Shown here piece after piece: positions 1,236 to 64,000 of a DNA stretch of 64,000 bases. The notes beneath the pieces are model-generated. The model had not been told where the DNA came from. It made no database searches and saw only the letters and a program-made list of their open reading frames with translations. The translations under genes were made by a program, and so were the position numbers. This stretch comes from Lingula anatina (taxonomy: Eukaryota; Animalia; Brachiopoda): contig CM120647.1 of NCBI GenBank assembly GCA_051362555.1, positions 310,001-374,000 of the forward strand. The letters run 5' to 3'. The first letter of the stretch is position 1. Each line of letters starts with the position of its first letter.

Positions 1236-4200
1236 TTGATGAAGGGATAGGCATCACAAACCGACCCAAGTATACAGGATTATGGCATGCATTTAAGACA
1301 ATTTTCAAGACAAGTGGACCACTGGGCTTGTATCAGGGTGCTGTACCAAATATCACTGGTGCTGGAGCTGCTTGGGGGTTCTACTTCCTATTGTAAGTAC
1401 TAGGGGTGGAGGTGCTTGGGGGTTCTACTTCCTATTGTAAGTACTGGGGGTGGGGGTGCTTGGGGGTTCTACTTCCTATTGTAAGTACTGGGGGTGGGGG
1501 TGCTTGGGAGTTCTACTTCCTATTGCAGCGATTGCGAAAGCTGTCTGACCACGGCCATATGCCGGCAAAAATTCTGTGGGCTGGAAAACCCTTATAACTC
1601 ATCGGCCCACATGACCGACGGACTAAAGTTGATTTCTTTTACAGACACCGACTCATATCTAAATTTATCGTAAAGCTCTGAGTACGCACTAGGCGCAAGT
1701 AAAATTTTAACCTGCGCCATACTGGAGCGTACAAATACATGTAGCAAACACTATTTTTTGTAATAAAGATCTTCATACATTATGATGTCGCTCGAAGTGC
1801 GCATAGAGATGCTGTGAGGGCTGACATGTGACCCGTTTCACAAAAAAATTATCGAAACTGAAACAACTACAGGTCAATGAAAAACGTACTGCTCAAGACA
1901 CTGAAAACAGGCCGCTCAAACTGCTTACGACAGGCCGCGCACGGACCTCCAGTGATTGCGAAAGAGATTGAACACTTACCAGACATGTGGGCTGGAGCAA
2001 ATTAAATTTTGTCAGCCCACACCTTTTTTTACCGGCCCACAACAAAATAATTAAGCTGTTTATTTTCACTTCATTTTTGATGAATATTATTGTCTGGCAT
2101 TTTAAATCGCTGCTTTTTAATTTTCAGGCCAGATGTAATAGGATATTTAAAGGTTAAAGTTTAAACGTCTTTCATTTTGGTTGCTTTCTGGCATTTAAGT
2201 TTTATTCTTTTTATATCTGGGTTGCTTATCTTAATTTCTAATCTTTTAACACAAGATCATTATCCTTTGTAAATTTTATTCCAATTTTTGACTAAAATTA
2301 AAATATAAGTCATAGTGAAGTGGAGCTTCCAACTTATCTAACTTTTTTTAGATTTTCACTCTTGGAAAAATGCTTGTCTGTTTGTTAGCAGGGATTGTCC
2401 TGGGTCAAAATCTGGTCGGGCCATTTTGGACCACTTGGCCATTTTTTTAAAATGTGTGCCGTGAATTATTTAAAGAAAATTCATTGTATTTCAATATTTT
2501 TTATATGATTAAATTCAATGAAAAAAGGCTTGATGCTACTACTCTGAAGTCCTAAATAATTGTAGTGTGTGGAAAAATCTTCCAAAATCAACATACTGTC
2601 CGAAAAATTGTACAGTATTTAATGAAAAAATCTTCAAAATTGATAATTGCACTATGCCAAATAATTGCACTACATGGAAAAGGTAGACAAATTCCATTTT
2701 TATTGTAAAATAAAGCTATTGCTCTCATAGCAGGCCCGTAGCCAGCAATTTTAAAAGGGGGAGGGTCTTTTTCCATAAAAACGCCATGTACCTAGATCAA
2801 ATTTTACCAAGAGTGGACCTTTTGTCAGCATAAGAGGCCGTTCTTTCGAAACCCCTGAACCATCCCTGGGTACGGGCCAGAGTCTGAAAAGAATCTTTAT
2901 TCAATATCTAAGCTAGTTCGTTTAGATGAATATAATGGACAGTTTTGCACCCTGACTGTGCCATTGCGGATTTTCCGCATTGAAAATGATGTTGTCCCTC
3001 ATTTTGACATATAGCACCGCTAAAGGTGCAATATTACTTAAATATCCGTTAAAATTAGTTAAGAGCACCCATCTAAAAAGCAAATGAATATTTCTCCTTT
3101 TAACTTATCGTTTACTCAACATGCAGTCCGACGGAAGCCATACTTGTTTACCCAGCACGTGTAGTTAGGTGTTCTCAGAGGTCCGCGCGTGGCCTGTCGT
3201 AAGCAGTTTGAGCGACCTGTTTTCAGAGTCTTGAGCAGTACGATTTTCATTGACCTGTAGTTGTTTCAGTTTCGATACATTTTTTGTGAAACGGGTCACA
3301 TGTCAGCCCTCACTCCATCGCTACGCACACTTCGAGCGACATTAAATGTACATAGACCTTTATTACAAAAAATAGTGTTTGCTATTTGTACGCACCAGTA
3401 TGGCGCAAGTTAAAGTTTTACTTGCGCACAGTGCGTACTTAGAGCTCTACGATAAGTTCAAATATGAGGCGAGGTGTCTGTTAAAGAAACCGACTTTAGT
3501 CCGTCGGACATGTGGGCCGATGAGTTAAAAGGGTTTTCCAGCCCACAGAATTTTTGCCGGCATATGGCCGTGGTCCGACGGCTTTCGCAATCACTGGACC
3601 TCTGAGAACACCTAACTACATGTGCTGGGTAAACAAATATGGCTTCCGTCGCACCGCATGTTGAGTAACCGATAAGTGAAAAAGAGAAATATTCATTTGC
3701 TTTTTACATGGGTGCTCTTAACTAATTTTAATGGATATTTTAAGTAATATTGCATCTTTAGCGGCGCTATATGTCAAAATGAGGGACAACATCATTTTCA
3801 GTGCGGAAAATTTGCAATGGCACAGTCAGGATGCAAAACTGTCTATTAATTCATCTAAACGAACTAGCTTAGCCTTAGATATTGAATAAAAATTATTTTC
3901 AGACTCTGGCCCGTTGCCAGGAATTGTTCAATTACAAAAAATAGTTCGAAAGAATCGCCCCTTTTGCTGACAAAAGGTTCACCCTTGGTAAAATTTGATC
4001 TAGGTACATGACGTTTTTATGGAAAAAAGACCCCCCCCCCTTTTAAAATTGCCGACTACGGGCCTGCTATGAGAGCAATGGCTTTTTTTTACAATAAGAA
4101 TGGGAATTGTCTACCTTTTCCATGTAGTGCAATTATTTATTCTGAAAGATTTTTCCATTAAGTACAATTTTTTGGACAGTACAATTGTTAATTTTGGAAG

Positions 4201-7200
4201 ATTTTTCCATACACTACAATTATTTAGGACTTCAGAGTAGAAGCATCAAGTTTTTTATTGTTTTTAATCATATAAAAATATTGAAATATAATGAATTTTC
4301 TCTAAATAATTCACGGCACACATTTTTTAAAAATGGCCTAATTTCTTTTTTTACCAAGTGGGCCAAAATGGCCCAACCAGATTTTGACCCAGGACGATCC
4401 CTGCTAACAGACAAGCATTTTTCCAATAGTGAAAATCTAAAAAAAAGTTAGAAAAGTTGAAAGCTCCACTTTACTATGACTTATATTTTAATTTTAGGCA
4501 AAAATTGGAATAGAAATTTACAAAGGATACATGATCTTGTGTTAAAAGATTAGAAATTAAGATAAGCAAAAAGGATAAAACTTAAATGCCAGAAAGCATC
4601 CAAAATGAAGGATGTTTAAACTTAAACCTCAAATATTCTATTATATCTGGCCTGAAAATTGAAAAAGCACCGATTTAAAATGCCCGGCAATAACATTCAT
4701 CAAAAATGAAGAGAAAATATACAGCTTGATTATTTTATTGTGGGCCGGTAAAAAAAGGTGTGGGCTGACAAAATTTAACTTGCTCCAGCCCACATGTCTG
4801 GTAAGTGTTCAATCTCTTTCGCAACCACTGCTATTGTAAGTACTGGGGGTGGGGGTGAGGTGGGGTTGTACTTCCTATTGTAAGTACTGGGGGTGGGGGT
4901 GAGGTGGGGTTGTACTTCCTATTGTAAGTACTAGGGGTGGGGGTGCTTGGGGGTTCTACTTCCTATTGTAAGTACTGGGGGTGGGGGTGCTTGGGAGTTC
5001 TACTTCCTATTGTAAGTACTGGGGGTGGGGGTGAGGTGGGGTTGTACTTCCTATTGTAAGTACTGGGGGTGGGGGTGAGGTGGGGTTGTACTTCCTATTG
5101 TAAGTACTGGGGGTGGGGGTGAGGTGGGGTTGTACTTCCTATTGTAAGTACTGGGGGTGGGGGTGAGGTGGGGTTCTACTTCCTATTGTAAGTACTGGGG
5201 GTGGGGGTGAGGTGGGGTTCTACTTCCTATTGTAAGTACTGGGGGTGGGGGTGAGGTGGGGTGGGGGTGAGGTGGGGTGGGGGTGGAGGTGAATTTAACA
5301 TAGGTGGGCTACTTCATTACGCTGGTGTAGAGATTTAGACTTTTTGGTACCAGTGAATAGGATTTGGAAGGGGCTGGGTAAGCTTTTGAAATGATGCTCC
5401 AAAAATAGTGTTGAGGAATGTAATAACCAGCTAAGTAAAATGTTATAACATGAAAATACTTTTTACCATACACAGTATTTGTTTTCAGTTATACTGCTAT
5501 CAAGGGCTGGAGATATTGACATGTTAATATTTACCATAATTATTTACTGTGTTTGTTTACAGTTATAATGCTATCAAGGGATGGATGCAGGATGGAGATA
5601 TTGACATGTTAATAATTACCATAATTATAGACTGTGTTTGTTTACAGTTATAATGCTATCAAGGGATGGATGCAGGATGGAGATATTGACATGTTAATAT
5701 TTACCATAATTATAGACTGTGTTTGTTTACAGTTATAATGCTATCAAGGGATGGATGCAGGATGGAGATATTGACAAGCCACTGGGAGCAACCAAGCACA
5801 TGCTAGCAGCAGCGGAGTCAGGTAGGGTTTCCAGAGCTAGTTTCCCATGCCAAAGTGATTGCTTCTGAAGATAAATAACAAATCAGTGTTTTTTTTTTTT
5901 CAGAAGATAAATAACAAGTCACTGATTGATTCTTAAGATAAATATCAAGTCTTTGATTTTTTTCTGAAGATAAATAACAAGTGAATGATTTTTTCTAAAG
6001 ATAAATAACAAGTTAGTGATTTTTTTGAATATATATTTAACCAGTCATGGTTGTTTTTTGAAGGTGTAAAACAGGTTTTTATACAAGTTGACAATCACTG
6101 TGTAGAGTATCATGTTGACCAAGAGGTCAGAAAGTCTACAGGTGGGTTTCTTTCCCCAGGTGTGTTAACACTCATTATAACAAATCCCATCTGGGTAGTG
6201 AAAACCAGGCTGTGCCTACAGTATGATACTGCTGTAGCCACATCTAACGCAGCCAGGAGTGACGTGTACAGCGGAATGGTGGACGCTCTACGGAAAGTTT
6301 ACAGAACAGAAGGAATCAGGGGGTGGTACCGGGTGAGTGGAACAGCCAAACATCAAAAATTACAACCAGACTTGCTAATATCGCTGGTTCTACTGGCTAA
6401 GGCTGACAACAAAAGGAACAGTAGAAAATATTGTTCAGTCTGTCGGAGGGACTGACAACAATACAAGTGCTGTCTTTTTTAATTGTCTGTCAATCCAAAT
6501 GTGTGTCTGTTTTTAAAGGTTTTTTGGATGTCTTTTGTCTACCTAAAACACTATTTACTGAAGTCAGGTTAAGTAAATAACATAGCTGTTACATTTGTGT
6601 CTGTTGGTTGCTTTTTAGGGTTTTGTTCCGGGGTTATTTGGTGTATCCCATGGTGCTTTGCAGTTTATGGCGTACGAAGAACTGAAGAGAATGTATAACA
6701 AGTATAACAACGCGCCACTGAGCAGAAGACTTGTAAGTTTTTTATAACATAACGCGCTTTGCCTTAACTGTTCAAGCATAAATATTTCCTTTAGGTAAAT
6801 TTTGATAAATGTTTACTGGTGGAAAGGTTAGGATATCTACATGTGTGGAAATAACAATGCTGCTACTAAGGTCCCTTACCCTGTAGATCAATTGAACTTT
6901 GTGCTGATTCTTGCTGAGTGTATTCAGCTTAATTACACTCCTTCTGTTAAGTAGACTACAGAAAAACCAGTGATTATATATGAACATTGGAACCAAAAGG
7001 AAGCATGTCATTCAATAAAGCTGATTGCACTCAGCAAGAATCCCGCTGAGTTGGATCGATCTACATAGAATGATTGTGACTACGGAAATGGGAGACTTAG
7101 TATTGAGAAAGAGTTATTTTAGACAGTATTAAATCTTTTCCTGTTGGTACAACATGACACTTGCTGTAACCTTTATAGCTGAAAATGCCAATGTTGTCAT

Positions 7201-10200
7201 GGAGACATATCTGGCACTGTTGTCATGGAGATTATCTGGCACTGTTGTCATGGAGATTATCTGGCTCTGTTGTCATGGAGACATGCCTGTTTTTGATTTC
7301 AGGGTTCAATGGAGTACTTAACCTTTGCTGCTATCTCTAAAATCTTTGCTGCCAGCGTGACGTATCCGTACCAGGTGGTCAGGTCGCGGCTACAGGACCA
7401 GCACCGTTCTTATAATGGTGCTGTCGATGTGCTCAAGCAGATATGGAGGTAAGACAGTCCACGTGGTATTATATAATGTTATTCTCCAGTGAGAGAGAGA
7501 GAGAGTGCTGGTTGCTGGGAGTGGGGTAAGAGGTAGTTATATGAACTTGACAAAATGATTGTTAACATCCCCTGCAAAACTTTGTCTTGTTTAACGTTCA
7601 CTTACGGTTCTCTATCTATTCTAGAACATTTGGCGTAATTTTTTTAACAGTTCTAGTGTTGTTATGTAACAGTGAACGTAACTGTTCAAGAACTGTTTTT
7701 GGGTTGCCCTTCAGAATGTCATAAACAGATAAAGAACATTTTTCATTAAAAGAGAAAAAACAGTACGTTCTAGGACAGAACCCCATGTCAGGGGGGTGGG
7801 GGGGTCAGCTTCACATCCACAGCCTGTCATTCTAAAAAAAAAACAGACCCCCCTTCAAATAATACTGGATCTGCCCCTGGTGTGTGTGAGCCTGTGCGTG
7901 TGCGTGCGTGTACTCACTGACCCTCTGCATTGCTTCTATATTTCAGGCATGAGAAACTGCCAGGATTTTACAAAGGATTGTCCCCCTACTTGCTTCATGT
8001 CATCCCCAATATCTGCCTGGTCTTTGTTATATATGAGAAAATGCAGGGCTGGTTCTTTGGTCCGCTGACGCTAGTTGACAGTGTAGAATGACAGTGGCTC
8101 CCTCTAGTGAGGCAGAGTCACATTACCGTATGACTGGGGTCACATTATATTATATTATATTTATATCAATCTTACAGAGCCTTTTACACCAAATTCAAAG
8201 AAAACTGACAAAAAAATCAGTGAAATATCATAAATAAGGAAGTTAGCAAGAGGAAGTATAAAAATGTGCACCTTGCAGTGTATGAAATACACTACAGTCT
8301 GGTGTGTTGTTGTTGGCCTTAAAACAACTGAGACTGTGGAGTAGCGTGAGAGACCTCTGGTGGTCTTTAGCAGTATTAAGGAACAGGAACTCATGTTAAC
8401 AGGAGGTTCTGAGCACAATCCATATATTATGTAGGAACAAGTGTCTTGTCCATTTTAACATATGTTCAGACTGTTTTACTTACGTATATAAATATGTATA
8501 TATATATGTAAATATATATTACCTGCCATTTTAGACAGGGCATATTTACCATTTACTCATTGTCATGTCAGGTGGAGGGTGTTTTTTTCATTATGAACAA
8601 AACTGTACCAAAGACAATTATATGACATTGCCATGCAGTTCAGTGATACCATAAGTTGGTTTGGTACAGCATTTCTCATTGGCTTACAATGCCATGCAGT
8701 TCAGTGATACCATCAGTTGGTTTGGTACAGCATTTCTCATTGGCTTACAATGCCATGCAGTTCAGTGACAGCCGCAGTTGATTTGGTACAGTATTTCTCA
8801 TTGGCTTACAATGCCATGCAGTTCAGTGACAGCCACAGTTGATTTGGTACAGTATTTCTCATTGGCTGACACTGCCATGAAAGATATTGTGTAAACAGTA
8901 GTGGTATCGATACAATTTGCCATTTGTTGGTTGTGGATAATATTTATGACAGTGAAACTGTTCACACACTATCAACATAGAAAAGGGTATTGGAAGACAC
9001 AGTGGTCATTATGGGGAAGTTATGGGAACAGATGATTTTGTATTTAAAATACGGTGATAGATGTTAAGTTTGAATGTGGTATTTGGATGACTGGAAATAA
9101 TGAGGTTTTAGTATTAAATAAGATATTGATAACAGTCTTGATGAAGTATTTCTGGTGGTTAGATTCTGATGAGAACCCTCTACCACTTGGCTTCAAGCAT
9201 AATAAGAAGGAAAAAGAAGGGACAGTGAGATTCTCTTATTACTTACTCTCTACTTACTATTCATGTTGTCACATATTTATGAATGCTTTGTAAATATTTT
9301 TATCAAAAAATTGGAGTTGGTCTGTATGCACTGAAAGATCATTTTCAGCAATAATTAGGTGATTGCTTGATTTGTTTCAGTAAATTGTTTCAAAAACAAT
9401 CAGAGAGGTTAAGCCACACTGGCTAGTTTGTACATATGGTAATATCTAGTCTACTAGTATATTATAAATAGTTGGCCATAAAATATGGTTGACTTTGGCC
9501 CCATTCAGAATAGATAATCCAAGTACTCACGACCACACTTCAAAAGAGATGCCAGTGATTCTCAATGATCTCCCCACCTCCACACATGATGTTGCTAGAA
9601 AGGCCCAGCAATTAAACCTTGGAGCAGAGATTTATTCCTTTTAATGGCACATGTGGAGGCAGGGAGACCATTAAGAATCAGCGTCATCTCTTTTAAAGTG
9701 TGTTTGGCCATATTAAATTGACAGATCAGTTAGTACTCAGATCATCTATTCTGAACGGGGCCTTTTACACCATTCATTCCTAGTTTTAAGTTATTCAGTG
9801 ATATGAAATATCTTTGGTTGTCTTTACATGTATCATCATACATCGGGAGTCACATAAATCATATATAACTCACGTGAACAAAATATTCTTGACAGCCTTA
9901 AATTTTTGTCTTTATCTTTCTTTATCTCATCAGAAATGTATTTATATGTGTAACATCACAGTTTGTTTCTGCTCACGTGAAAGCAGAGGTCATAAAACTG
10001 TCTCTCCTTAAAGGAGGGAGCTCTCGATATATAGGCAAAACTTACTTGATGTGACTTGAATCCATGGATGTATTAATATATTTGTCATCAGCTATGGTTA
10101 TCATCATACAAACATGGCAGTATTGATGTGAACTGTCAAGTGTTGGTTGTCAAAGTGAAGTAGAACAATTCAGTTTTTGTGGCAAAGACCACAACTCTCA

Positions 10201-11412
10201 CTGCAGCTAATTGTAACATATCACAAACAGATTGGTGTGAATTTTTTGTGTGAACTTTGTCAGCGCATTGACAAATGAACAAAACATTTCAGGGAAAAAA
10301 CAATCCTTTTGGAAATGGTTATTTTAGATCGCAGATGATTGGACCAGCTTTCATCCAGGCCTTTTCCTGTTGACATACTTTTACAAGTTCTTTTTCTTGA
10401 TCAGAACTATTTATAATATGGTGGAAGATTCAGACGATGGGTCAGAGCTTTTAGAGATTCCAAGTCAGAAATGAATTACTATCAAATATGTTTGCGGCTT
10501 GAAATCACAAATGGTAATTATTTCGTTAACAAGATCGGTATTGAAAGGCAGCCAAGTTAGAGTTAAATACTTTGCAGGATTTCTTATTTGATTACAAGTT
10601 CAGTTTTAAAAACGGATAACATGGAAATTGTTGTATTTGAGATGTGATTGTGTTGGCAGTGATAAGTTATTGTTGTTTGTGTTGTTCACGTAGTCTTGTT
10701 AAGAAATGTCAGAAATATCATGGCAGTCGAACTGTCACACTTGCAGGATCAAAAAATAAAAAAGTAAAAAGTAGTTTTGTTTCAGTTTTGTTTGTTATAC
10801 CTGTAGAATTGCTTTGTTCTTTATGCTTCGAACTTCTTTCCTTTGTCTTCTTTGAGGTAGTTGGTGTGATGTAGCTTAATTTATGTGTTATGTTTTGAAT
10901 ATTTTATATTTGTGCATTATTCAGATAATACAGGTATTTTCTTACAATCTCCCCGAGTTTGACATCTGCAAGAGATGCTTTTGACTGGTGTTACATCAGC
11001 ATTGGGGCAACAACACGCTGCAACTGGGAAACTCCTTGTAAAAAATGTCCCAGAATCACAAAAAAAATATGTTCTGCAAATCTTTATAAGTAATTGGTAT
11101 TACAAATATTTTGGGGCACCTATCATTAATTCCACTTTTTCTTCTCTTTGTAGAACAGACAACTGGGGATTTTTAAGAAAACCTAAATTAACATCAAAAA
11201 CGCCTTTATTTGACTGAGTGAACCATTTTGGCACACTGAACTAATTCCTCCATTTTTCTTCTCTTTATAGTAAGGAAAGCGTTGGTGGGTTTTACAAGGG
11301 CATGGTTCCTAACGTGCTACGTGTTGTCCCCAACTGCTGTATTGTGTTCGTAGTGTACGAGGGTATAACAGGGGCACTGGCAGAGCGCTGGAAGACCACA
11401 GAGGAGGCGTAG
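1236..11412 (+). CDS. SLC25A32: Mitochondrial folate/FAD carrier SLC25A32 (5'-partial; first coding exon upstream of window), isoform using canonical terminal exon 7b
   Basis: Exons 1236-1392, 5733-5821, 6160-6332, 6619-6732, 7303-7448, 11271-11412; all AG/GT flanked and phase-consistent. Translation includes [120 protein letters not shown], matching my recollection of SLC25A32. Confidence 0.93.
1526..4830 (+). mobile_element. Non-autonomous TIR DNA transposon, about 1.65 kb (outer copy), 6-bp TSD
   Basis: Termini cagcgattgcgaaag / ctttcgcaaccactg; TSD ctattg at 1520-1525 and 4831-4836; no transposase ORF. Confidence 0.9.
1950..3596 (-). mobile_element. Second copy of the same transposon inserted in inverted orientation inside the first
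   Basis: Termini cagtgattgcgaaag / ctttcgcaatcactg; TSD gacctc at 1944-1949 and 3597-3602; sequence is the diverged reverse complement of 1526-1949 + 3603-4830. Confidence 0.92.
5475..5775 (+). repeat. 85-bp tandem repeat copying SLC25A32 splice acceptor + exon start (4 acceptors)
   Basis: cag|ttata(a/c)tgctatcaaggg with AG ending at 5488, 5562, 5647 and 5732; only the last runs into the full exon. Confidence 0.93.
6881..7065. mobile_element. Degenerate fold-back MITE-like element
   Basis: tgtagatc..ttcttgctgagtg..tcagctt is inverted as aagctga..cactcagcaagaa..gatctaca. Confidence 0.55.
7193..7282 (+). repeat. 25-26 bp minisatellite x4 just upstream of an acceptor
   Basis: gttgtcatggaga at 7193, 7219, 7244, 7269. 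Confidence 0.85.
7947..8091 (+). CDS. SLC25A32: Alternative terminal exon 7a of SLC25A32 (paralogous copy of the helix-6 exon)
   Basis: tttcag acceptor at 7945-7946, same phase as exon 7b; encodes [47 protein letters not shown] then TGA. Confidence 0.82.
8629..8880 (+). repeat. 61-bp minisatellite x4
   Basis: tgccatg at 8629, 8690, 8751, 8812, 8873. Confidence 0.9.
9497..9762. mobile_element. Fold-back MITE, PIF/Harbinger (Tourist)-like
   Basis: TIR ggccccattcagaatagat / atctattctgaacggggcc, flanked by ttt on both sides (3-bp TSD); internal arms also inverted. Confidence 0.75.
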
Positions 11413-11620
11413 GTGGTCGATGCTGAAAGTGAAAGAATTTCTGTGCATCCACTGGAGTGCAGGTCAATAGAGTCTACAGCACATTGTGATTTATTACGGA
11501 GAGTGTGTCCTAGAGCAACAGGAAGTGGATGTGTTCATGGAGGATTACCACCTGGACCTGGCCAATGAAATAAAAGTTGACCGAAAAAGATTGTGTGGAA
11601 AGATTCCATTGTTTATAATA

Positions 11621-14239: not shown

Positions 14240-17200
14240 TCACAGCAGGTCAAAGAAGTAGTCTAGGCCCTGCCCTATCTCCCATATAGAGATGCCAGTC
14301 CCCAGCTCATTGGCCAGATCAAGTCTGTCCTTTATTGATTGTAAGCTGGGATAATATACAACATGGCTGCCTATGCCTGTCCTGAAAGTAGAATATAAAC
14401 TGTATAACATCTAATGTATCAGTAAGTAATATGCAACATGGCTGCCTATGTCTGTCCTATAGTAGAATATAAACTGTATAACATCTGATGTACCAGTAAG
14501 TAATATATAACATGGCTGCCTATGTCTGTCCTGAAAGTAGAATATAAACTGTATAACATCTGATGTACCAGTAAGTAATATACAACATGGCTGCCTATGT
14601 CTGTCCTGAAAGTAGAATATAAACTGTATAACATCTGATGTACCAGTAAGTAATATACAACATGGCTGCCTATGTCTGTCCTGAAAGTAGAATATAAACT
14701 GTATAACATCTGATGTACCAGTAAGTAATACAACATGGCTGCCTATGTCTGTCCTGAAAGTAGAATATAAACTGTATAACATCTAATGTACCAGTAAGTA
14801 ATATGCAACATGGCTGCCTATGTCTGTCCTGAAAGTAGAATATAAACTGTATAACATCTGATGTATCAGTAAGTAATATATAACATGGCTGTCTATGTCT
14901 GTCCTGAAAGTAGAATATAAACTGTATAACATCTGATGTACCAGTTAGTAATATATAACATGGCTGCCTATGTCTGTCCTGAAAGTAGAATATAAACTGT
15001 ATAACATCTGATGTACCAGTAAGTAATATATAACATGGCTGCCTATGTCTGTCCTGAAAGTAGAATATAAACTGTATAACATCTGATGTACCAGTAAGTA
15101 ATATATAACATGGCTGCCTATGTCTGTCCTGAAAGTAGAATATAAACTGTATAACATCTGATGTACCAGTAAGTAATATATAACATGGCTGCCTATGTCT
15201 GTCCTGAAAGTAGAATATAAACTGTATAACATCTGATGTACCAGTAAGTAATATATAACATGGCTGCCTATGTCTGTCCTGAAAGTAGAATATAAACTGT
15301 ATAACATCTGATGTACCAGTAAGTAATATATAACATGGCTGCCTATGCCTGTCCTGAAAGTAGAATATAAACTGTATAACATCTGATGTACCAGTAAGTA
15401 ATATATAACATGGCTGCCTATGCCTGTCCTATAGTAGAATATAAACTGTATAACATCTGATGTATCAGTAAGTAATATACAACATGGCTGCCTATGTCTG
15501 TCCTGAAAGTAGAATATAAACTGTATAACATCTGATGTACCAGTAAGTAATATATAACATGGCTGCCTATGTCTGTCCTGAAAGTAGAATATAAACTGTA
15601 TAACATCTGATGTATCAGTAAGTAATATATAACATGGCTGTCTATGTCTGTCCTGAAAGTAGAATATAAACTGTATAACATCTGATGTACCAGTAAGTAA
15701 TATATAACATGGCTGCCTATGTCTGTCCTGAAAGTAGAATATAAACTGTATAACACCTGATGTACCAGTAAGTAATATATAACATGGCTGCCTATGTCTG
15801 TCCTGAAAGTAGAATATAAACTGTATAACATCTGATGTACCAGTAAGTAATATATAACATGGCTGTCTATGTCTGTCCTGAAAGTAGAATATAAACTGTA
15901 TAACATCTGATGTACCAGTAAGTAATATATAACATGGCTGCCTATGTCTGTCCTGAAAGTAGAATATAAACTGTATAACATCTGATGTACCAGTAAGTAA
16001 TATATAACATGGCTGTCTATGTCTGTCCTGAAAGTAGAATATAAACTGTATAACATCTGATGTACCAGTAAGTAATATATAACATGGCTGTCTATGCCTG
16101 TCCTGAAAGTAGAATAAAAACTGTATAACATCTAATGTACCAGTAAGTAATATACAACATGGCTGCCTATGCCTGTCCTATAGTAGAATATAAACTGTAT
16201 AACATCTGATGTATCAGTAAGTAATATACAACATGGCTGCCTATGTCTGTCCTGAAAGTAGAATATAAACTGTATAACATCTGATGTACCAGTAAGTAAT
16301 ATATAACATGGCTGTCTATGTCTGTCCTGAAAGTAGAATATAAACTGTATAACATCTGATGTACCAGTAAGTAATATATAACATGGCTGCCTATGTCTGT
16401 CCTGAAAGTAGAATATAAACTGTATAACATCTGATGTATCAGTAAGTAATATACAACATGGCTGCCTATGTCTGTCCTGAAAGTAGAATATAAACTGTAT
16501 AACATCTGATGTATCAGTAAGTAATATACAACATGGCTGCCTATGTCTGTCCTGAAAGTAGAATATAAACTGTATAACATCTGATGTACCAGTAAGTAAT
16601 ATACAACATGGCTGCCTATGTCTGTCCTGAAAGTAGAATATAAACTGTATAACATCTGATGTATCAGTAAGTAATATATAACATGGCTGCCTATGCCTGT
16701 CCTATAGTAGAATATAAACTGTATAACATCTGATGTATCAGTAAGTAATATATAACATGGCTGCCTATGCCTGTCCTGAAAGTAGAATATAAACTGTATA
16801 ACATCTGATGTACCAGTAAGTAATATACAACATGGCTGCCTATGTCTGTCCTGAAAGTAGAATATAAACTGTATAACATCTGATGTACCAGTAAGTAATA
16901 TATAACATGGCTGCCTATGCCTGTCCTGAAAGTAGAATATAAACTGTATAACATCTGATGTACCAGTAAGTAATATATAACATGGCTGCCTATGCCTGTC
17001 CTATAGTAGAATATAAACTGTATAACATCTGATGTATCAGTAAGTAATATACAACATGGCTGCCTATGTCTGTCCTGAAAGTAGAATATAAACTGTATAA
17101 CATCTGATGTACCAGTAAGTAATATATAACATGGCTGCCTATGTCTGTCCTGAAAGTAGAATATAAACTGTATAACATCTGATGTACCAGTAAGTAATAT

Positions 17201-20200
17201 ATAACATGGCTGCCTATGTCTGTCCTATAGTAGAATATAAACTGTATAACATCTGATGTACCAGTAAGTAATATACAACATGGCTGCCTATGTCTGTCCT
17301 GAAAGTAGAATATAAACTGTATAACATCTGATGTATCAGTAAGTAATATATAACATGGCTGTCTATGTCTGTCCTGAAAGTAGAATATAAACTGTATAAC
17401 ATCTGATGTACCAGTAAGTAATATATAACATGGCTGCCTATGTCTGTCCTGAAAGTAGAATATAAACTGTATAACACCTGATGTACCAGTAAGTAATATA
17501 TAACATGGCTGCCTATGTCTGTCCTGAAAGTAGAATATAAACTGTATAACATCTGATGTATCAGTAAGTAATATACAACATGGCTGCCTATGTCTGTCCT
17601 GAAAGTAGAATAAAAACTGTATAACATCTGATGTACCAGTAAGTAATATACAACATGGCTGCCTATGTCTGTCCTGAAAGTAGAATATAAACTGTATAAC
17701 ATCTGATGTACCAGTAAGTAATATATAACATGGCTGCCTATGTCTGTCCTGAAAGTAGAATATAAACTGTATAACATCTAATGTACCAGTAAGTAATATA
17801 TAACATGGCTGCCTATGTCTGTCCTGAAAGTAGAATATAAACTGTATAACATCTAATGTACCAGTAAGTAATATACAACATGGCTGTCTATGTCTGTCCT
17901 GAAAGTAGAATATAAACTGTATAACATCTGATGTACCAGTAAGTAATATACAACATGGCTGCCTATGTCTGTCCTGAAAGTAGAATATAAACTGTATAAC
18001 ATCTAATGTACCAGTAAGTAATATATAACATGGCTGCCTATGTCTGTCCTGAAAGTAGAATATAAACTGTATAACATCTGATGTACCAGTAAGTAATATA
18101 CAACATGGCTGCCTATGCCTGTCCTGAAAGTAGAATATAAACTGTATAACATCTGATGTACCAGTAAGTAATATATAACATGGCTGCCTATGTCTGTCCT
18201 GAAAGTAGAATATAAACTGTATAACATCTGATGTACCAGTAAGTAATATATAACATGGCTGCCTATGCCTGTCCTGAAAGTAGAATATAAACTGTATAAC
18301 ATCTGATGTATCAGTAAGTAATATACAACATGGCTGCCTATGTCTGTCCTGAAAGTAGAATATAAACTGTATAACATCTGATGTACCAGTTAGTAATATA
18401 TAACATGGCTGTCTATGTCTGTCCTGAAAGTAGAATATAAACTGTATAACATCTGATGTATCAGTAAGTAATATACAACATGGCTGCCTATGTCTGTCCT
18501 GAAAGTAGAATATAAACTGTATAACATCTGATGTACCAGTAAGTAATATATAACATGGCTGCCTATGCCTGTCCTGAAAGTAGAATATAAACTGTATAAC
18601 ATCTGATGTACCAGTAAGTAATATATAACATGGCTGCCTATGCCTGTCCTATAGTAGAATATAAACTGTATAACATCTGATGTATCAGTAAGTAATATAC
18701 AACATGGCTGCCTATGTCTGTCCTGAAAGTAGAATATAAACTGTATAACATCTGATGTACCAGTAAGTAATATATAACATGGCTGCCTATGTCTGTCCTG
18801 AAAGTAGAATATAAACTGTATAACATCTGATGTACCAGTAAGTAATATATAACATGGCTGCCTATGTCTGTCCTATAGTAGAATATAAACTGTATAACAT
18901 CTGATGTACCAGTAAGTAATATACAACATGGCTGCCTATGTCTGTCCTGAAAGTAGAATATAAACTGTATAACATCTGATGTATCAGTAAGTAATATATA
19001 ACATGGCTGTCTATGTCTGTCCTGAAAGTAGAATATAAACTGTATAACATCTGATGTACCAGTAAGTAATATATAACATGGCTGCCTATGTCTGTCCTGA
19101 AAGTAGAATATAAACTGTATAACACCTGATGTACCAGTAAGTAATATATAACATGGCTGCCTATGTCTGTCCTGAAAGTAGAATATAAACTGTATAACAT
19201 CTGATGTATCAGTAAGTAATATACAACATGGCTGCCTATGTCTGTCCTGAAAGTAGAATAAAAACTGTATAACATCTGATGTACCAGTAAGTAATATACA
19301 ACATGGCTGCCTATGTCTGTCCTGAAAGTAGAATATAAACTGTATAACATCTGATGTACCAGTAAGTAATATATAACATGGCTGCCTATGTCTGTCCTGA
19401 AAGTAGAATATAAACTGTATAACATCTAATGTACCAGTAAGTAATATATAACATGGCTGCCTATGTCTGTCCTGAAAGTAGAATATAAACTGTATAACAT
19501 CTAATGTACCAGTAAGTAATATACAACATGGCTGTCTATGTCTGTCCTGAAAGTAGAATATAAACTGTATAACATCTGATGTACCAGTAAGTAATATACA
19601 ACATGGCTGCCTATGTCTGTCCTGAAAGTAGAATATAAACTGTATAACATCTAATGTACCAGTAAGTAATATATAACATGGCTGCCTATGTCTGTCCTGA
19701 AAGTAGAATATAAACTGTATAACATCTGATGTACCAGTAAGTAATATACAACATGGCTGCCTATGCCTGTCCTGAAAGTAGAATATAAACTGTATAACAT
19801 CTGATGTACCAGTAAGTAATATATAACATGGCTGCCTATGTCTGTCCTGAAAGTAGAATATAAACTGTATAACATCTGATGTACCAGTAAGTAATATACA
19901 ACATGGCTGCCTATGTCTGTCCTGAAAGTAGAATATAAACTGTATAACATCTGATGTACCAGTAAGTAATATATAACATGGCTGCCTATGCCTGTCCTGA
20001 AAGTAGAATATAAACTGTATAACATCTGATGTATCAGTAAGTAATATACAACATGGCTGCCTATGTCTGTCCTGAAAGTAGAATATAAACTGTATAACAT
20101 CTGATGTACCAGTTAGTAATATATAACATGGCTGTCTATGTCTGTCCTGAAAGTAGAATATAAACTGTATAACATCTGATGTATCAGTAAGTAATATACA

Positions 20201-23200
20201 ACATGGCTGCCTATGTCTGTCCTGAAAGTAGAATATAAACTGTATAACATCTGATGTACCAGTTAGTAATATATAACATGGCTGCCTGTACCTGAAAATA
20301 GACTAAAAACTGCAAATGGCTGTCTGTACTGGTTATGAAAGTGGAGTAGGTAAATGCAAGGGCTGGTACCAATTAAAACACAGTGAAAAAAAAAACTGCA
20401 CCAGAAAGCTGTGTATAAGTCTTTTTAGGCTGTAGTGTAAATAAAAGTAAAAACCATGAGTACAGGGTCTTGAAGAATTTAAAGATTTTAATGGAATTTT
20501 TATCAACCAATAATTAATAACTATGAGTTAAAGATATATTAAGTGATTTAAAACATCATTTCTTCTTTTTTAAAAAACTTTAAAATATTAAAATAAAACA
20601 AAAGGCAATACAAAATTGTTTCTCACTTGTATTGGAATGTATGCTCGGAGGAGGTGGCGTCCCAGACCAGCTTAGGTTTATGTTTTGTAAGTATTTCTAT
20701 AAACCTGAAAAAGAAAAGGTTTTATGTGTAAAAAGTCATACACAGCTTGCAATTAGATAAAAGATGAAATAAACATCACTAAGAAATTTAGTCAATATCA
20801 TCCAACATATCTGGAATCAAAGCAACAAAATTGTCATAAATACAGATATAAAGCAGATTATAACCACTGGTGCACAAGAGGTTTTTAAAATTAATTTTGA
20901 AGCAACATCATATAGTTACTGACACAAAATTTTACTTATGATCATAAGGTTTCAAATTATGGACATTCATAAAATGTATCTTGAAAATGCCAATGTGTGA
21001 ACAATGAAATAAATTCACACACATACACACATAATTAAAATAATTAAGAAAAAACAGCATATGTGAAGTTCAAGTAACAGAACCTAATCACCGATATTTA
21101 AGTCCAAAAAATCACTCCAGTAAATTTGAGGATGAAAAGTCAGGTAATTATACATTTACCGAATTTACAGTGAAAAGTGCACAATACAGACCCTGTCCAC
21201 TGTTTCAGGTGATGGCTATATGTGCAAACACACATTGTCCGTACATAAAAAAGATTACTGAATTCTAAGGGACCATTCCCAGACTCTATCGTACCAACTG
21301 TGGAACGATCTACCTCCAAGGCTTAGGGGATTCTAGCTAATTTGCAATCAACTTATAAGTGGCTTAGATGTCTGTCATGCCTACTGAAGCTGCTAGGGAT
21401 TTCATACACGCTCTGCTTCTGGAAGTTGTTTCACATCGTCATGAGCGTGATCATTGCGCATGTGCATCCAGGTAGCTACAGTCAGACATCTCTCCCCCCT
21501 CCTCCCCTCTCCCCACATCTTCCTCATCCTTTTCACTAATTATACTCACTGCTGTCCCAGTATTGGCCCCCCTCCTCCACTCTCTGCCTGGTTTTATCTA
21601 TTCCTAACTATACTCACTGCTGTCCCAGTATTGGCCCCCTCCACCACTCTCTGCCTGGTTTTATCTATTGCTAACTATACTCACTGCTGTCCCAGTATTG
21701 CCCCCCCTCCTCCACTCTCTGCCTGGTTTTATCTATTCCTAACTATACTCACTGCTGTCCCAGTATTGGCCCCCCTCCTCCACTCTCTGCATGGTTTTAC
21801 CTATTGCTAACTATACTCACTGCTGTCCCAGTATTGGCCCCCTCCTCCACTCTCTGCCTGGTTTTATCTATTCCTAACTATACTCACTGCTGTCCCAGTA
21901 TTGGACCCCCTCCTCCTGGTACATAGTCGGCACCATAGAAATTCAGGCCTAGTAATATTTTCCTCCTATAGGGGGAGGCACTTTCTGGTACCAAGGTCTC
22001 TACACAGCTCCTCATCCAGCTTAGGGGGCTGTTAGGACCAGGGCTGAAAAATAACAGAGAATACTGGGAAATACACTGGATACTACAGCATCAGAGTGGT
22101 GCTACTGCCTCCAGGACTTGTACCACCAGTTCAGAGAATTAAACTGAAACAAATAATTATGACTGAGAAAAAAAAATTGCTGGGACCAAAAGTGCTGCCA
22201 GATGCAAGTGAAAAAAAAAATTCTTAATTTATGTCAAATACAACTGCCTTTCAAGCTGGTTAAGGTAAAATATCAAATAAGTGAAAATTAATTTAGAAAT
22301 CAGCCAAGCTACTCTTTTAACTAAAGCTTGTGTACATGTATACCTCATAGGGTTAGAGTAATCATAGGTCATGTATACCTCATAGGGTTAGAGTAATCAT
22401 AGGTCATGTATACCTCATAGGGTTAGAGTAATCATAGGTCATGTATACCTCATAGGATTAGAGTAATCATAGGTCATGTATACCTCATAGGATTAGAGTA
22501 ATCATAGGTCATGTATACCTCATAGGGTTAGAGTAATCATAGGTCATGTATACCTCATAGGATTAGAGAAATCATAGGTCATGTATACCTCATAGGGTTA
22601 GAGTAATCATAGGTCATGAGACTAAAGGCATCCATGACAGGGGCCAGGGCCTCAAACTCCTCCACACCTACCATCCCTGGGCTGTTCCTACAACAGAATG
22701 AACATACAGATATTGGCAGATATGTTGACCATGGTGTGAGAAGTTTTATCTGTAGTTACTTTACAACTACAACAATCAAGTAAACAATATACTTTATGCT
22801 GAAATTATTGGACCATTTTCTTAAACTAAGTTACTTGTTTGAGGACTTTTTTCTATGCATCTAATCTAAATTCTAATATCTTAATTGTAACACAGAAAAT
22901 ATTCAGGAAATTGTATCTCCTGTAGCAAACAATTAGGCATCTCATGTCAAGTGACATTAGCACATTTTAGGTAGTTGAAGTAAATTGTTGTGATCACAAC
23001 AAAACACAACAAGTTTTCCAAACTATTACCTCTGCATCAGAGGAGGAGGAAGAACAAGAATCACTTTTTTATTCTCTGCATGGAAATCTTCAGCAAAGTG
23101 CTCCAGGAAATGGACCAGTTCTCTGGATGTAAGAAAGTAATAACATGACAGAGAATGTACTATATAATATAACAACTCCAGGAAATGGACCAGTTCTCTG

Positions 23201-44920: not shown

Positions 44921-44981
<61 letters not shown>

Positions 44982-45425
44982 AAAGATTTATCAAATGTCT
45001 ATGCTCTGCTTTGGTTATATGTTACCCATAATACTTCTAAATAGAGAGAACAGCTTCATTCAGTAACTGAGAATATGGAGCAACACATTAATGTCTAATT
45101 TCTTTTTTAATGCTCCTCTATTTATTGTGCTGCTTAAATACTTTGTAATCATTTCCAATATTTCTTCTGCAGTTTTTCAATTTGTTGGTCTGCGTGTTTG
45201 TGTTATAATATTCCATATTTCTTCTGCAGTTTCTCTATTTATTAGTCTGTGTTTGTGTTATTATATTCCATATTTTTTCTGGAGTTTCTCTATTTGTTAG
45301 TCTGTGTGTTTGTGTTATTATATTCCGTATTTCTTCTGCAGTTTCTCTATTTATTAGTCTGTGTGTTTGTGTTATTATATTTCGTATTTCTTCTGTAGTT
45401 TCTCTATTTGTTGGTCTATGTGTTA

Positions 45426-60679
<15,254 letters not shown>

Positions 60680-60806
60680 GTTTAAAAGAACTCCAGATGT
60701 TCATTGGGGAACTCTGGGTGACTTAGAGCAGTGACCAGGGGAATTAATTCAGATTATTAGTTTTCAGCAATAAATCAGTGTGATCATTAGATTGAGAACA
60801 GCATAA

Positions 60807-60819
60807 GTATCATGGCAAC
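60807..60819 (-). promoter_or_regulatory. Putative RFX X-box upstream of SPAG1
   Basis: gtatcatggcaac (minus GTTGCCATGATAC) about 130 bp upstream of the first ATG of a ciliary gene. Confidence 0.5.
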
Positions 60820-60904
60820 CTGCTCTTTCGTTTCTCCTTTTCAAAATGGATAATTTGTTTGTTTTTTTAAACAGAAATCAGAAATGGTGAAATGCAGATT
60901 TACA

Positions 60905-61118
60905 CCCCATTTCCATAGATTAGATCGACCTACTTTAGATCGACCTAACTCCCTGGGGGTTCACGCTAAATAGCTGTCAGCCGGGCGGACACGAAAGTTA
61001 ATTACCCCTTATACATGTAGCTTTCTAGTAGGCGGGGACGGACACTTAAGGGGGATTATCTGACAGTAATCTAGTGAGACTCCCCGTGGTGATAGATCGA
61101 TCTCAAGTTGTGGGAATA
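60905..61118 (+). mobile_element. Short MITE-like family, copy 2
   Basis: Homologous to 34384-34542 and 62831-63046; imperfect TIR. Confidence 0.8.
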
Positions 61119-62084
61119 GACCCTAAGGGAAAAAGGGAGTAATCATTATATTATTATTATTATTATTATTATGCCTTTTTTGTCTAACTTATAAAGTGCA
61201 ACTTACGGGCTCTAAAAGAAAGGATAATACCAATATCTCTAGAAGTAGTAAACAGTAAATCTGCACATTTTCACACGTTTTAAAAATGTAAGTTGATATT
61301 ACTGCTTTCAATGCACCATTGCATTAGAAATTTGACAAGTAGATGACTTTTTAATACAAATTAAATGAAACGAAATTAAATTAAATTAAAGAGTAAGCAC
61401 CTGGTTATACAGACTGAACTATTCCAAAAAATACATTATCGGGAGTTTTGACAACGCCACAAGCTATAAATGATTATGAGGTTTATCGTTTAGGTGTTTT
61501 CCAGAAAAAAGCACATGCTTTCATTTTGACTAGGATGTAAATTTTCATATCACAGTCGCCAAAGATACAATTCACATTCCAACAATTACTTTCTACAGAT
61601 AAGATTAATACATATATGATATTTTTAGTTTTTAGCCCAGAGAAGTTTACAAACCTTATAAAAACGAACAATTCCGCGGCAGTATCACAGCAACAGCGTA
61701 CATCGCCATCCAACGGAAATAGGTCACACACCCGCACTCAATACAGCTTACAAATGTCATTGGTTGATCTGATTGGAAAGTCATCTCCAAATGGGGATCT
61801 AATAAGGGATAAGGTAAATTATTCAGGGGTATTTTGCAAAAAGACATAAAATTATGTTTTCATAGTTATAATGCTTTGATTTACACAAAAAAGCCCTTGT
61901 GAACGACAGGGCACCTGCCAAGATAAGCCACAGAATACCAGATGGTGCTGCCATCTTACGAAGAACATCCAAAACAAATATAACATGGCGCTGTCGGCTG
62001 GTTGACCTATTTTCCGGGTATTTTAGAGCTGTATATAATCAAGAAAACTCCCTAGTTTCAGTCAGTCTATTTCGTTAATATGCG

Positions 62085-62429
62085 ATGGAGAGGATCGGGA
62101 TGATCACCGTGTACATATCTGTACTATTATTTCATGTAAACTGTGGTAAGTAGGGTAAGGTCTTTCCGTTTACACCAACTTGAGATGGTTTACAATTTTC
62201 ATCAAGTTCTTGCAGTCATGTTTAAACTTGACTCAGCACAAAGTGAAAGTTTTATTCTAACACTTGCTATCTGCTGTTTCACTTAGTTTTGAAGTCTATT
62301 TTGAAAAACAGTGATCGTATATTGTCATATCAATATAATTTTTATCCTGAAAACAACATTATCATATTTTTATTATTTCAATGTAAATTCCGTCTCTTCT
62401 GCTTTGACTTACATGCCATGTTTTCCAGC

Positions 62430-62471
<42 letters not shown>

Positions 62472-62781
62472 CACACACGCACACACACACACACATACAC
62501 ACACACACAGCAGTAACACGAAGATTCCTTCTTTAGCACTCCTATTGACAATTCTGATAAGTACTGGCTATGTTGAATTTTCGTGCTAACACGGCAGTTG
62601 CTTCTCTCAACCCCAAACACTCTATCTAACAGACACCTTATTTCTTTCCAGCCACATTAACTGGGCGCCTGTCCTACTTTGAGACATTACATCACCGTGA
62701 CTTCTCACATGTGATACATAGACGTAGTCTCCATACACAGACACCAAGCCATAGAGAAGTGGCTTTTAGTGCACTGGGCAG
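62085..62781 (+). CDS. ADAM17/TACE-like metalloprotease, first two coding exons (signal peptide + start of prodomain); gene continues beyond window
   Basis: Exons 62085-62145 (MERIGMITVYISVLLFHVNC, donor gtaagt) and 62652-62781 (ATLTGRLSYFETLHHRDFSHVIHRRSLHTQTPSHREVAFSALGR, donor gtaggt). The downstream acceptor repeat continues in phase as RFHLF. Resembles ADAM17/ADAM10 prodomain starts; orthology is not resolvable from this fragment. Confidence 0.7.
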
Positions 62782-62830
62782 GTAGGTGAAATTCATTATT
62801 GTAGTCTCCACACACAGACACCAAGCCATA

Positions 62831-63046
62831 GACCCCATTCCCAGAGATTAGATCGATCCAACTAGATTGAAATAACTCCCTGGGGGTTCATGCTAAATAG
62901 CTGTCAGCCGAGTGGGTACGAAAGTTAATTATACCCCCCTTACAGCTTGTAGTAGGCGGGACGGACATTTAAGCCGGATTATCTGACTGTAATCTAGTGA
63001 GACTTCCCACGGGGATATATCAATCTAAAATCTATGGGAAGGCGCC
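62831..63046 (+). mobile_element. Short MITE-like family, copy 3, inserted in a duplicated exon end
   Basis: ttcccagagatt / aatctatgggaa TIR; flanked by duplicated cata(g). Confidence 0.8.
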
Positions 63047-63377
63047 CATAGAGAAGTGGCTTTTAGTGCACTGGGCAGGTAGGTGAATTTGTTATTGTGT
63101 TGATTTTATAACTTCCATGAAATGACACATGATTCCCATCAGTCCATTACTGCAATTTTCAGGCATCCTAAAAGCAGTTCAGTAGATATCAAGGTACCTC
63201 GACTCCCAAGACAGAAGTATACTGAGTATATTGATAAATTTGGCATTTCATCTCCTTTACACACAGTACAATTCAATTAAACATGAACCAAGTAACTACA
63301 TATCTTGGCTTTTTTTTTGTCCCAAATGTGCCCATGAAATATAACCAAGGTGCTGAGTTTAAGTATGCCCTGATTTT

Positions 63378-64000
63378 TACAGGCAGCTCCATCTGTTCTT
63401 CCTGTTGAGTTTTCTCTCATTGTTGTGTTACAGGCAGTTCCATCTGTTCTTCCTGTTGAGTTATTCTCATTGTTGTGTTACAGGCAGTTCCATCTGTTCT
63501 TCCTGCTGAGTTTTCTCTCTTTGTTGTGTTACAGGCGGTTCCATCTGTTCTTCCTGTTGAGTTATTCTCATTGTTGTGTTACAGGCGGTTCCATCTGTTC
63601 TTCCTGTTGAGTTTTCTCTCATTGTTGTGTTACAGGCGGTTCCATCTGTTCTTTCAGTTGAGTTTTCTCTCATTGTTGTGTTACAGGCGGTTCCATCTGT
63701 TCTTCCTGTTGAGTTTTCTCTTATTGTTGTGTTACAGGCGGTTCCATCTGTTCTTCCTGTTGAGTTTTCTCTCATTGTTGTGTTACAGGCGGTTCCATCT
63801 GTTCTTTCAGTTGAGTTTTCTCTCATTGTTGTGTTACAGGCGGTTCCATCTGTTCTTCCTGTTGAGTTTTCTCTCATTGTTGTGTTACAGGCGGTTCCAT
63901 CTGTTCTTCCTGTTGAGTTTTCTCTCATTGTTGTGTTACAGGCGGTTCCATCTGTTCAACCAGTTGAGTTTTCTCTCATTGTTGTGTTACAGGCGGTTCC
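63378..64000 (+). repeat. 51-bp tandem repeat (12 or more copies, runs off window) copying the presumed next acceptor + exon start of the ADAM17-like gene
   Basis: Unit ttttctctcattgttgtgttacag|gcggttccatctgttcttcctgttgag; joining to the phase-2 donor at 62781 gives ALGR-RFHLF. Confidence 0.85.

What the first reader, a model, noticed from the sequence alone, without database searches (positions are those of the whole stretch)
1369..64000. Window-wide pattern: splice junctions themselves are amplified into tandem arrays in all four genes
Seen in sequence: about 16 unrelated repeats (tandem units 27-85 bp plus two single duplicates; 2-111 copies) each straddle an exon boundary of their host gene. 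Donors: 1393, 21887, 22588, 31898, 40243, 42498, 48514, 50361, 52078, 53943, 62782. Acceptors: 5732, 14382, 23123 and the one beyond 64000. One more copies the SPAG1 stop codon. In every fully visible case the functional exon is the terminal copy and the array grows into the intron or UTR. The units share no sequence, so this is local birth at boundaries, not a dispersed family. Most remaining minisatellites (7193, 32390, 52195, 56918) also start or end within about 45 bp of an exon. Inference: a boundary-targeted duplication process (e.g. co-transcriptional pausing/R-loops, chromatin or methylation edges, rolling-circle reinsertion) coexisting with strict exon definition that ignores hundreds of near-perfect decoy sites. 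I do not know a description of this at such density.
Basis: partly seen in the sequence, partly recalled or inferred. Interest (0 to 1): 0.88.

Follow-up and report, generated by a model that had tools for sequence, protein, structure and literature searches.

The report
Dense splice-junction "mirage" minisatellites, spiralian genome
In this invertebrate genome about one in six exon edges of three neighbouring genes has been copied head-to-tail into the adjoining intron, up to 110 times, which is a repeat type already described in lancelets ("mirages") and a human clotting gene; the extra splice signals are likely mostly ignored, and why such repeats gather at exon edges is still open.

Summary
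Open-frame exon models of SLC25A32, CHID1 and SPAG1 confirm 13 of the listed junctions (13 of 73 modelled). A 14th duplicate lies in a fourth, unidentified gene; the acceptor beyond 64000 cannot be checked. After collapsing arrays, 12 of 18 arrays in gene bodies straddle a junction against 2.5 expected (P about 1e-7); a harsher null gives 12 of 17 against 4.3 (P 6e-5). Units are unrelated and hold about 276 decoy sites. Short-read contigs of a DNA run break exactly at three array edges, which argues against assembly artefact for two arrays.

It is not undescribed. These are "mirage" minisatellites (amphioxus Adh3, globins, PGBD5; human F7 intron 7). A one-gene tree places the host in Spiralia, not amphioxus. 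This scan has noted mirages before in other genomes (abalone, annelids, urchins, shark).

Short direct repeats at array ends fit ordinary minisatellite birth. The cause of the exon-edge bias is inferred only. RNA depth fits exon-only use at two arrays; one of three samples hints at leakage into a third. No splice joints were seen directly. Verdict: new member of a known kind, unusually dense and large.

The parts
1236..11412 (+). SLC25A32 (mitochondrial folate carrier) coding exons seen in the window: 1236-1392, 5733-5821, 6160-6332, 6619-6732, 7303-7448 and two alternative last exons 7947-8091 / 11271-11412
   Evidence: open frame, GT/AG; named homologues
1355..5262 (+). 44-bp donor mirage (donor 1392|1393; 11 decoys), split by a 3.3-kb inverted-repeat insert at 1526-4830 with CTATTG on both sides
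5478..5776 (+). 85-bp acceptor mirage (acceptor 5732; 2 exact decoys and 1 shorter diverged copy); ends in a 14-bp direct repeat
14246..43113 (-). CHID1 (chitinase domain-containing 1), 11 coding exons
   Evidence: open frame; homologues with PF00704, one named CHID1
14352..20287 (-). 75-bp acceptor mirage of the last CHID1 exon (about 79 copies; 70 counted decoys identical at the site)
21536..21916 (-). 68-bp donor mirage (donor 21887; 5 decoys)
22335..22618 (-). 35-bp donor mirage (donor 22588; 7 decoys); ends in a 4-bp direct repeat
23101..31400 (-). 75-bp acceptor mirage (acceptor 23122; 110 decoys, all keep AG); use of the nearest decoy would add 25 residues in frame with no stop
31517..31943 (-). 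60-bp donor mirage (donor 31898; 6 decoys); 7-bp direct repeat at ends; a DNA contig ends at 31914
39406..40278 (-). 46-bp donor mirage (donor 40243; 18 decoys); DNA contigs end at 39435 and 40249; RNA reads inside it in run X12
42358..42561 (-). single ~108-bp duplicate of donor 42498 (80-89% identical)
45153..45469 (-). 57-bp array that copies the last SPAG1 codons and the stop codon into the 3' UTR (no splice site)
45424..60651 (-). SPAG1-like gene (TPR repeats plus RPAP3_C), 21 coding exons; start codon and 5' exon uncertain
47990..48558 (-). 47-bp donor mirage (donor 48514; 11 decoys, 9 keep GT); 5-bp direct repeat at ends
48882..50365 (-). 62-bp donor mirage (donor 50361; 23 decoys; only 4 exonic bases)
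51702..52117 (-). 55-bp donor mirage (donor 52078; 6 decoys)
53730..53960 (-). 27-bp donor mirage (donor 53943; 7 decoys); 10-bp direct repeat at ends
62724..63090 (+). 77-bp duplicate of a putative donor (62781|62782) of a fourth gene; second copy interrupted by a ~220-bp insert
   Evidence: open frame of exon 62652-62781; gene identity unverified (blank)
63377..64000 (+). 51-bp array that looks like an acceptor mirage of the fourth gene; the true exon would lie beyond the window
   Evidence: not verifiable here
5856..6026 (.). exon-adjacent 31-bp array that does not copy a splice site (34 bp from donor 5821)
7192..7281 (.). exon-adjacent 25-bp array (21 bp from acceptor 7302)
32390..32552 (.). 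exon-adjacent 28-bp array (12 bp from acceptor 32377)
52196..53642 (.). exon-adjacent 19-bp array, 76 copies (27 bp from acceptor 52168)
56916..57216 (.). exon-adjacent 42-bp array (48 bp from donor 57264)

Best explanation
These are mirage minisatellites: unrelated 27-108-bp stretches that span an exon edge and are repeated into the neighbouring intron, likely born by misaligned copying between short direct repeats, likely expanded and kept uniform by unequal exchange anchored on the conserved exon, and likely silent because the spliceosome would take the copy that is continuous with the whole exon. Shown: the arrays, their independence, their excess at exon edges in this window, intact decoy GT/AG, short direct repeats at the ends of about half of them. 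Inferred: birth by the Haber-Louis route; an exon-edge bias arising because, in a polymorphic genome, pairing between homologues starts in the constrained exon and slips where it enters divergent intron, and because arrays pinned to an exon are less often deleted; silence through first-donor scanning (shown for human F7) and exon definition at acceptors, with nonsense-mediated decay removing most leaks. The filing as mirages is about 0.95 likely; the exon-anchored exchange as cause of the bias only about 0.4.
For: Enrichment 12 of 18 vs 2.45 and 12 of 17 vs 4.26; unrelated units. 6 of 11 mirage arrays examined end in 4-14-bp direct repeats, none in 0-3 bp, the other 5 in long partial units; the 4 non-straddling arrays examined end in 5-16-bp repeats, as in the model summarised in PMC3389668 (passages). 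Exon-edge arrays are high-copy and 92-98% matched, whereas the few intron-interior repeats are about 2 copies and mostly 73-83% matched, which points to continuing turnover at edges. An array also sits on the SPAG1 stop codon, a constraint edge with no splice site. DNA run X3 differs from the window by about 2-3 letters in 100 in its longest pieces (table 8). 12 of 13 nearest-decoy uses give a premature stop (the 62-bp row is the true nearest decoy of 50361). RNA depth around the 31898 and 48514 arrays is accounted for by the exon alone in 3 of 3 runs. F7: only the most upstream of identical donors is used (PMC1557585, abstract and discussion).
Against: No call tests the recombination step. 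Exons are polymorphic too (4 variable sites listed in the 133-bp exon 40244-40376), so a sharp exon/intron contrast is not shown. The donor excess (10 of 35 vs 3 of 38, Fisher P=0.031) is not predicted by a symmetric conserved-edge model. If array ends were trimmed at random, about 2 of 11 would show 4-14-bp overlaps by chance (my estimate), so 6 of 11 is modest. 12 of 13 premature stops is about what AT-rich inserts give anyway (my estimate), and the largest array is the in-frame one, so decay does not explain tolerance there. Run X12 has 3108 letters of sense-strand RNA in the array-only bin 39568-40149, against 29 and 291 in X15 and X18. No spliced joint of these genes was displayed.
Confidence: 0.55

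Rival explanations
1. Same repeats, but the edge bias comes from transcription or chromatin: polymerase pausing, R-loops, nucleosome or methylation edges at splice junctions create nicks that are repaired with local duplication.
For: Donor excess 10 of 35 vs 3 of 38 acceptors, P=0.031; CHID1 and SPAG1 exons carry RNA reads; 5 further arrays lie within 50 bp of exons.
Against: The stop-codon array has no splice site (one case). Array ends show ordinary short direct repeats. No call tests R-loops, methylation or pausing.
Confidence: 0.27
2. No birth bias: duplications arise anywhere, but intron interiors are young or turn over fast (transposons, deletions) and introns are short, so only arrays pinned to exons persist and are seen.
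For: Large intron blocks are high-copy repeat DNA (depth in run X3); expectation rises from 2.45 to 4.26 when they are removed; an earlier scan note (e1-8074901) attributes mirages in another genome to short introns.
Against: The excess survives removal of those blocks and purging of exonic duplications (12 of 17 vs 4.26, P=6.5e-5); a lag scan finds no hidden pool of young intron-interior duplications.
Confidence: 0.13
3. The arrays are kept by selection as splicing rheostats: copy number tunes decoy use and decay, or adds in-frame repeats.
For: Decoy sites are intact (e.g. 110 of 110 keep AG); X12 shows RNA inside the 40243 array; the 23122 unit is in frame without a stop.
Against: Intact sites are expected from young, homogenised arrays; 2 of 3 RNA runs show almost nothing in that array; no aberrant transcripts reported for amphioxus mirages (PMC3087553, PMC3902484 passages) or F7 (PMC1557585).
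Confidence: 0.04
4. Assembly artefact.
For: The 6-kb and 8-kb arrays were not checked against raw reads; short-read contigs cannot give copy number.
Against: Contig pieces of run X3 end at 31914, 39435 and 40249, exactly 29 bases inside array edges as a 31-mer graph would break at a real repeat; units carry patterned variants; two arrays are interrupted by inserts.
Confidence: 0.01

Closest known systems
Amphioxus 'mirage' minisatellites (Adh3, Canestro et al. 2002, PMID 12087171, seen only as cited in PMC3087553; globins BflGb6/BflGb9, PMC3087553 passages; troponin C and PGBD5, PMC3902484 passage)
   Same: Tandem units spanning an exon-intron boundary, at 5' and 3' boundaries, units of 10-160 bp, duplicated GT/AG, near-identical copies, splicing reported as undisturbed, mechanism of generation stated to be unclear.
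   Different: Host here groups with spiralians, not cephalochordates. Density (13 of 73 junctions; 20,427 of 64,000 bases, counting the unverified last array) and size (79 and 111 copies, 5.9 and 8.3 kb) exceed the 3-6 units given for BflGb6; copy numbers for Adh3 were not seen. One array copies a stop codon.
Human F7 intron 7 37-bp VNTR (PMC1557585; abstract and discussion read)
   Same: First unit spans the exon-intron junction; 5-9 identical donors; only the most upstream is used, by oriented scanning; downstream sites are functional when the first is lost.
   Different: A single locus and donors only; it does not explain acceptor arrays, where the last copy must be chosen, nor any genome-level bias.
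Internal tandem repeats at exon-intron boundaries of human segmental-duplication genes (PMC2812944, passages)
   Same: Minisatellite-length units at exon-intron boundaries that can change splicing.
   Different: There the repeats are in recent paralogues and often form new introns; here they are in single-copy housekeeping-type genes with the exon left intact.
Haber-Louis minisatellite birth at 5-10-bp direct repeats (seen as summarised in PMC3389668 passages)
   Same: 4-14-bp direct repeats at the ends of 6 of 11 mirage arrays.
   Different: The model has no preference for exon edges.

Membership tests
mirage minisatellite | tandem unit spans an exon-intron boundary of the host gene | tested here: met
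   12 arrays and 1 duplicate on modelled junctions
mirage minisatellite | copies duplicate the splice signal (GT or AG) | tested here: met
   all but 2 of the straddling copies counted keep GT/AG; 276 decoys in 12 arrays
mirage minisatellite | unit length in the reported 10-160-bp range; both 5' and 3' boundaries affected | tested here: met
   27-108 bp; 10 donors, 3 acceptors
mirage minisatellite | normal splicing is not disturbed | tested here: inconclusive
   depth fits exon-only use at 2 arrays in 3 of 3 runs; excess inside a third array in 1 of 3 runs; joints not displayed
mirage minisatellite | copy-number instability between haplotypes or in soma | not testable with these tools
   only short-read contigs on hand; they break at the arrays
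mirage minisatellite | homogenised units within a cluster | tested here: met
   92-98% matches between adjacent copies; decoy exon parts differ from the real exon by 0-3 bases on average in 11 of 12 arrays, 7 in the 44-bp array; no unit tree was built
dispersed repeat or transposon family targeting splice sites | units share sequence with each other | tested here: not met
   best pair score 23 vs shuffled maximum mean 24.2 among 19 units

The most novel reading that the evidence does not exclude
This spiralian has a genome-wide mutational process that duplicates DNA preferentially at the edges of constrained coding sequence (splice junctions and stop codons), so that a sixth of exon edges carry ladders of up to 110 intact decoy splice sites, some of which leak in particular alleles; it would be the densest mirage genome measured and a natural test bed for both the origin of mirages and 3' splice-site choice among identical, in-frame competitors.
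Probability: 0.4. Interest if true: 0.55.

Novelty: new member of a known kind. Interest (0 to 1): 0.33.

Why it matters
The repeat type is known, but its origin is stated to be unclear (PMC3087553) and I found no enrichment figure in my 8 paper searches. A genome with this density allows a direct test of birth bias against retention, and of conserved-edge against transcription-coupled models. The CHID1 acceptor at 23122, with 110 AG-bearing in-frame copies upstream of a 93-bp exon, is a ready-made test of exon definition that decay cannot mask. Practically, such arrays can mislead gene annotation and short-read splice mapping.

Tried and rejected
No whole genome is held, so no genome-wide test was possible. 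The one read lay that was answered covered 31420-48870 only; its joint table was filled by high-copy repeats (15 rows shown, 328 not), so real and decoy splice joints were not seen. The SPAG1 5' arrays, SLC25A32 and both giant arrays have no read evidence. One search listed no RNA holder of 5700-8200, which is no evidence either way. Amphioxus as host: rejected (61% identity to B. floridae over one exon; separate clades); the spiralian subgroup is unresolved (long branch, one gene). Identity of the fourth gene: Pfam, PDB and ESM Atlas gave nothing for exon 62654-62779; an ADAM17-like prodomain is my recall only. Canestro et al. 2002 is not held and was not read. Paper searches for a published density or a spiralian case: searches found none (empty); the library lacks most subscription papers, and no supplements were read. 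A shared unit family: rejected. Selection for stop-bearing units: no support, the largest array is in frame. Short introns as sole cause: not sufficient here. Rows dropped before counts: microsatellites of period <10, arrays of <3 copies or period <19 (kept in the first test), the stop-codon array, the fourth gene, the speculative 7-bp first SPAG1 exon; 4831-5262 was merged with 1355-1525. Earlier-finding look-ups by place, by sequence and by longer words gave nothing relevant.

Full report
Observation. TRF lists 61 rows in the window; an independent lag scan finds the same arrays and no hidden pool of intron-interior duplications. I modelled three genes by joining exons by coordinate. SLC25A32 (+) has five shared exons and two alternative last exons (homologues named). 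CHID1 (-) has 11 exons. A SPAG1-like gene (-) has TPR and RPAP3_C matches (the name is recalled). All junctions are GT/AG with open frames. Thirteen of 73 junctions lie inside an array or duplicate: 10 of 35 donors and 3 of 38 acceptors. The 50361 unit holds only 4 exonic bases. The 62782 duplicate is real but its gene is unverified (blank), and the acceptor beyond 64000 cannot be seen.

More than chance. With each array collapsed to one unit, 12 of 18 arrays (period >=19, >=3 copies) in gene bodies straddle a junction against 2.45 expected (P=1.5e-7). With transposon-rich blocks chosen by eye removed, 12 of 17 against 4.26 (P=6.5e-5). Both nulls assume that fully exonic duplications are purged. 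The looser set of all 28 arrays gives 13 against 2.38. Of the arrays that do not straddle, 5 of 6 lie within 50 bp of an exon against 0.9 expected. This is one window, picked because it looked striking, so the figure should not be read as genome-wide. Units are unrelated. Twelve arrays hold 276 decoys, most identical to the real site. That the real exon is always the end copy follows from geometry and is not separate evidence.

Real DNA. Of the 8 contig pieces listed for DNA run X3, three end at 31914, 39435 and 40249, each exactly 29 bases inside an array edge, and one ends 3 bases off such a point. These pieces differ from the window by about 2-3 letters in 100, so they likely represent another haplotype. 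This shows that the 31898 and 40243 repeats exist; it does not give copy number, and the 5.9-kb and 8.3-kb arrays were not tested. Two arrays are interrupted by later inserts.

Host. SLC25A32 groups with annelid, nemertean and mollusc sequences (SH-aLRT 96) apart from deuterostomes including B. floridae (support 95/83 with Owenia). The branch is long and the subgroup unresolved.

Splicing. laid three RNA runs on 31420-48870. Its joint table showed only repeat-derived rows, so no splice joint of these genes was seen. Depth arithmetic: the bin with the 31898 array gives 10.7, 14.6 and 9.4 letters per exon base against measured exon depths of 9, 13 and 7. The two bins around the 48514 array agree with each other as exon-only coverage (23.7/22.8, 11.7/14.1, 5.7/4.1). 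Against strict silence: the array-only bin 39568-40149 holds 3108 letters in X12, all on the strand of the CHID1 exon reads, versus 29 and 291 in X15 and X18, while the unique intron beside it shows no excess in X12. Leakage to decoy donors in one individual or misplacement of reads could both give this; it is unresolved. In silico, 12 of 13 nearest-decoy uses give a premature stop; the exception is the 110-copy acceptor array, which would add 25 residues in frame.

Mechanism. Six of 11 mirage arrays examined end in 4-14-bp direct repeats and the rest in long partial units; four non-straddling arrays end in 5-16-bp repeats. This fits the Haber-Louis birth model as summarised in PMC3389668 (passages), so birth looks ordinary and only the location is special. 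Edge arrays are high-copy and 92-98% matched, while the few interior repeats are about two copies and mostly 73-83% matched, which suggests continuing turnover at edges. I infer exon-anchored unequal exchange or gene conversion between divergent homologues, helped by retention, because an array also sits on the SPAG1 stop codon, an edge with no splice site. Against this: exons are polymorphic too, and the donor excess (P=0.031) suits a directional, transcription-linked process. No call separates the two. Silence of donor decoys follows the F7 result that the most upstream of identical donors wins (PMC1557585, abstract and discussion); acceptor arrays need exon definition from the downstream side, which is inference.

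Comparison. Ebner et al. [quoted passage not shown] 2002 (cited there; not held), at both boundaries, 10-160 bp, without apparent effect on splicing and of unclear origin. PMC3902484 (passage) adds troponin C and PGBD5. PMC2812944 (passages) reports human boundary repeats in segmental duplications. Every tested defining feature is met; undisturbed splicing is inconclusive and instability untestable here. Eight searches of the open library found no published density figure and no spiralian case; subscription papers and supplements were not seen. Earlier notes of this scan report mirages in at least 5 other genomes; they are unchecked leads, and one supplied the F7 paper.

Verdict. Real, strongly enriched within the window, and a new, unusually dense and large instance of a known repeat kind. 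Interest 0.33; 0.55 if a genome-wide bias to constraint edges is shown.

Noticed in passing
window 7947-8091 and 11271-11412: SLC25A32 has two alternative last coding exons. The first resembles the C-terminus of Haliotis isoform X1 and Centruroides isoform X1, the second the usual form; Haliotis X1 and X2 differ only there. Likely an old, conserved pair of terminal exons in protostomes.
   Followed up: partly
window 1526-4830: A 3.3-kb insert made of nested inverted repeats (about 90% complementary arms, no central gene looked for) splits the 44-bp donor array; CTATTG stands on both sides like a 6-bp target duplication.
   Followed up: partly
window 62833-63045: A ~220-bp insert interrupts the second copy of the 77-bp donor duplicate; similar sequence occurs near 34340-34540 and 60910-61110 by eye, and 34330-34911 is very high-copy in run X3.
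   Followed up: no
window 32179-32235: A copy of the 28-bp unit of the 32390 array lies on the other side of the CHID1 exon 32271-32377, next to a 17-bp degenerate copy of that exon's donor: perhaps an old decayed mirage.
   Followed up: partly
window 42538: RNA runs show T where this haplotype's exon has C (9 of 22 reads in X12, 13 of 13 in X18); the decoy copy near 42432 has T at the matching place. One site only: ancestral allele or conversion.
   Followed up: no
window 32676-38960: A ~6.2-kb composite insert in a CHID1 intron; reads and contigs join its two ends (32746 to 38873), suggesting a short related element that is common elsewhere.
   Followed up: no
window 45560-47700: Very high-copy repeat DNA including a 162-bp tandem repeat (46762-47552) fills the last SPAG1 intron and is abundant in RNA runs.
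   Followed up: no
window 62082-62147 and 62652-62781: A fourth gene on + starts with a signal-peptide-like exon and an exon that reminds me of an ADAM17 prodomain (recall only; Pfam, PDB and Atlas blank). It lies head-to-head with SPAG1, whose true start is probably at about 60635 rather than 62419.
   Followed up: partly
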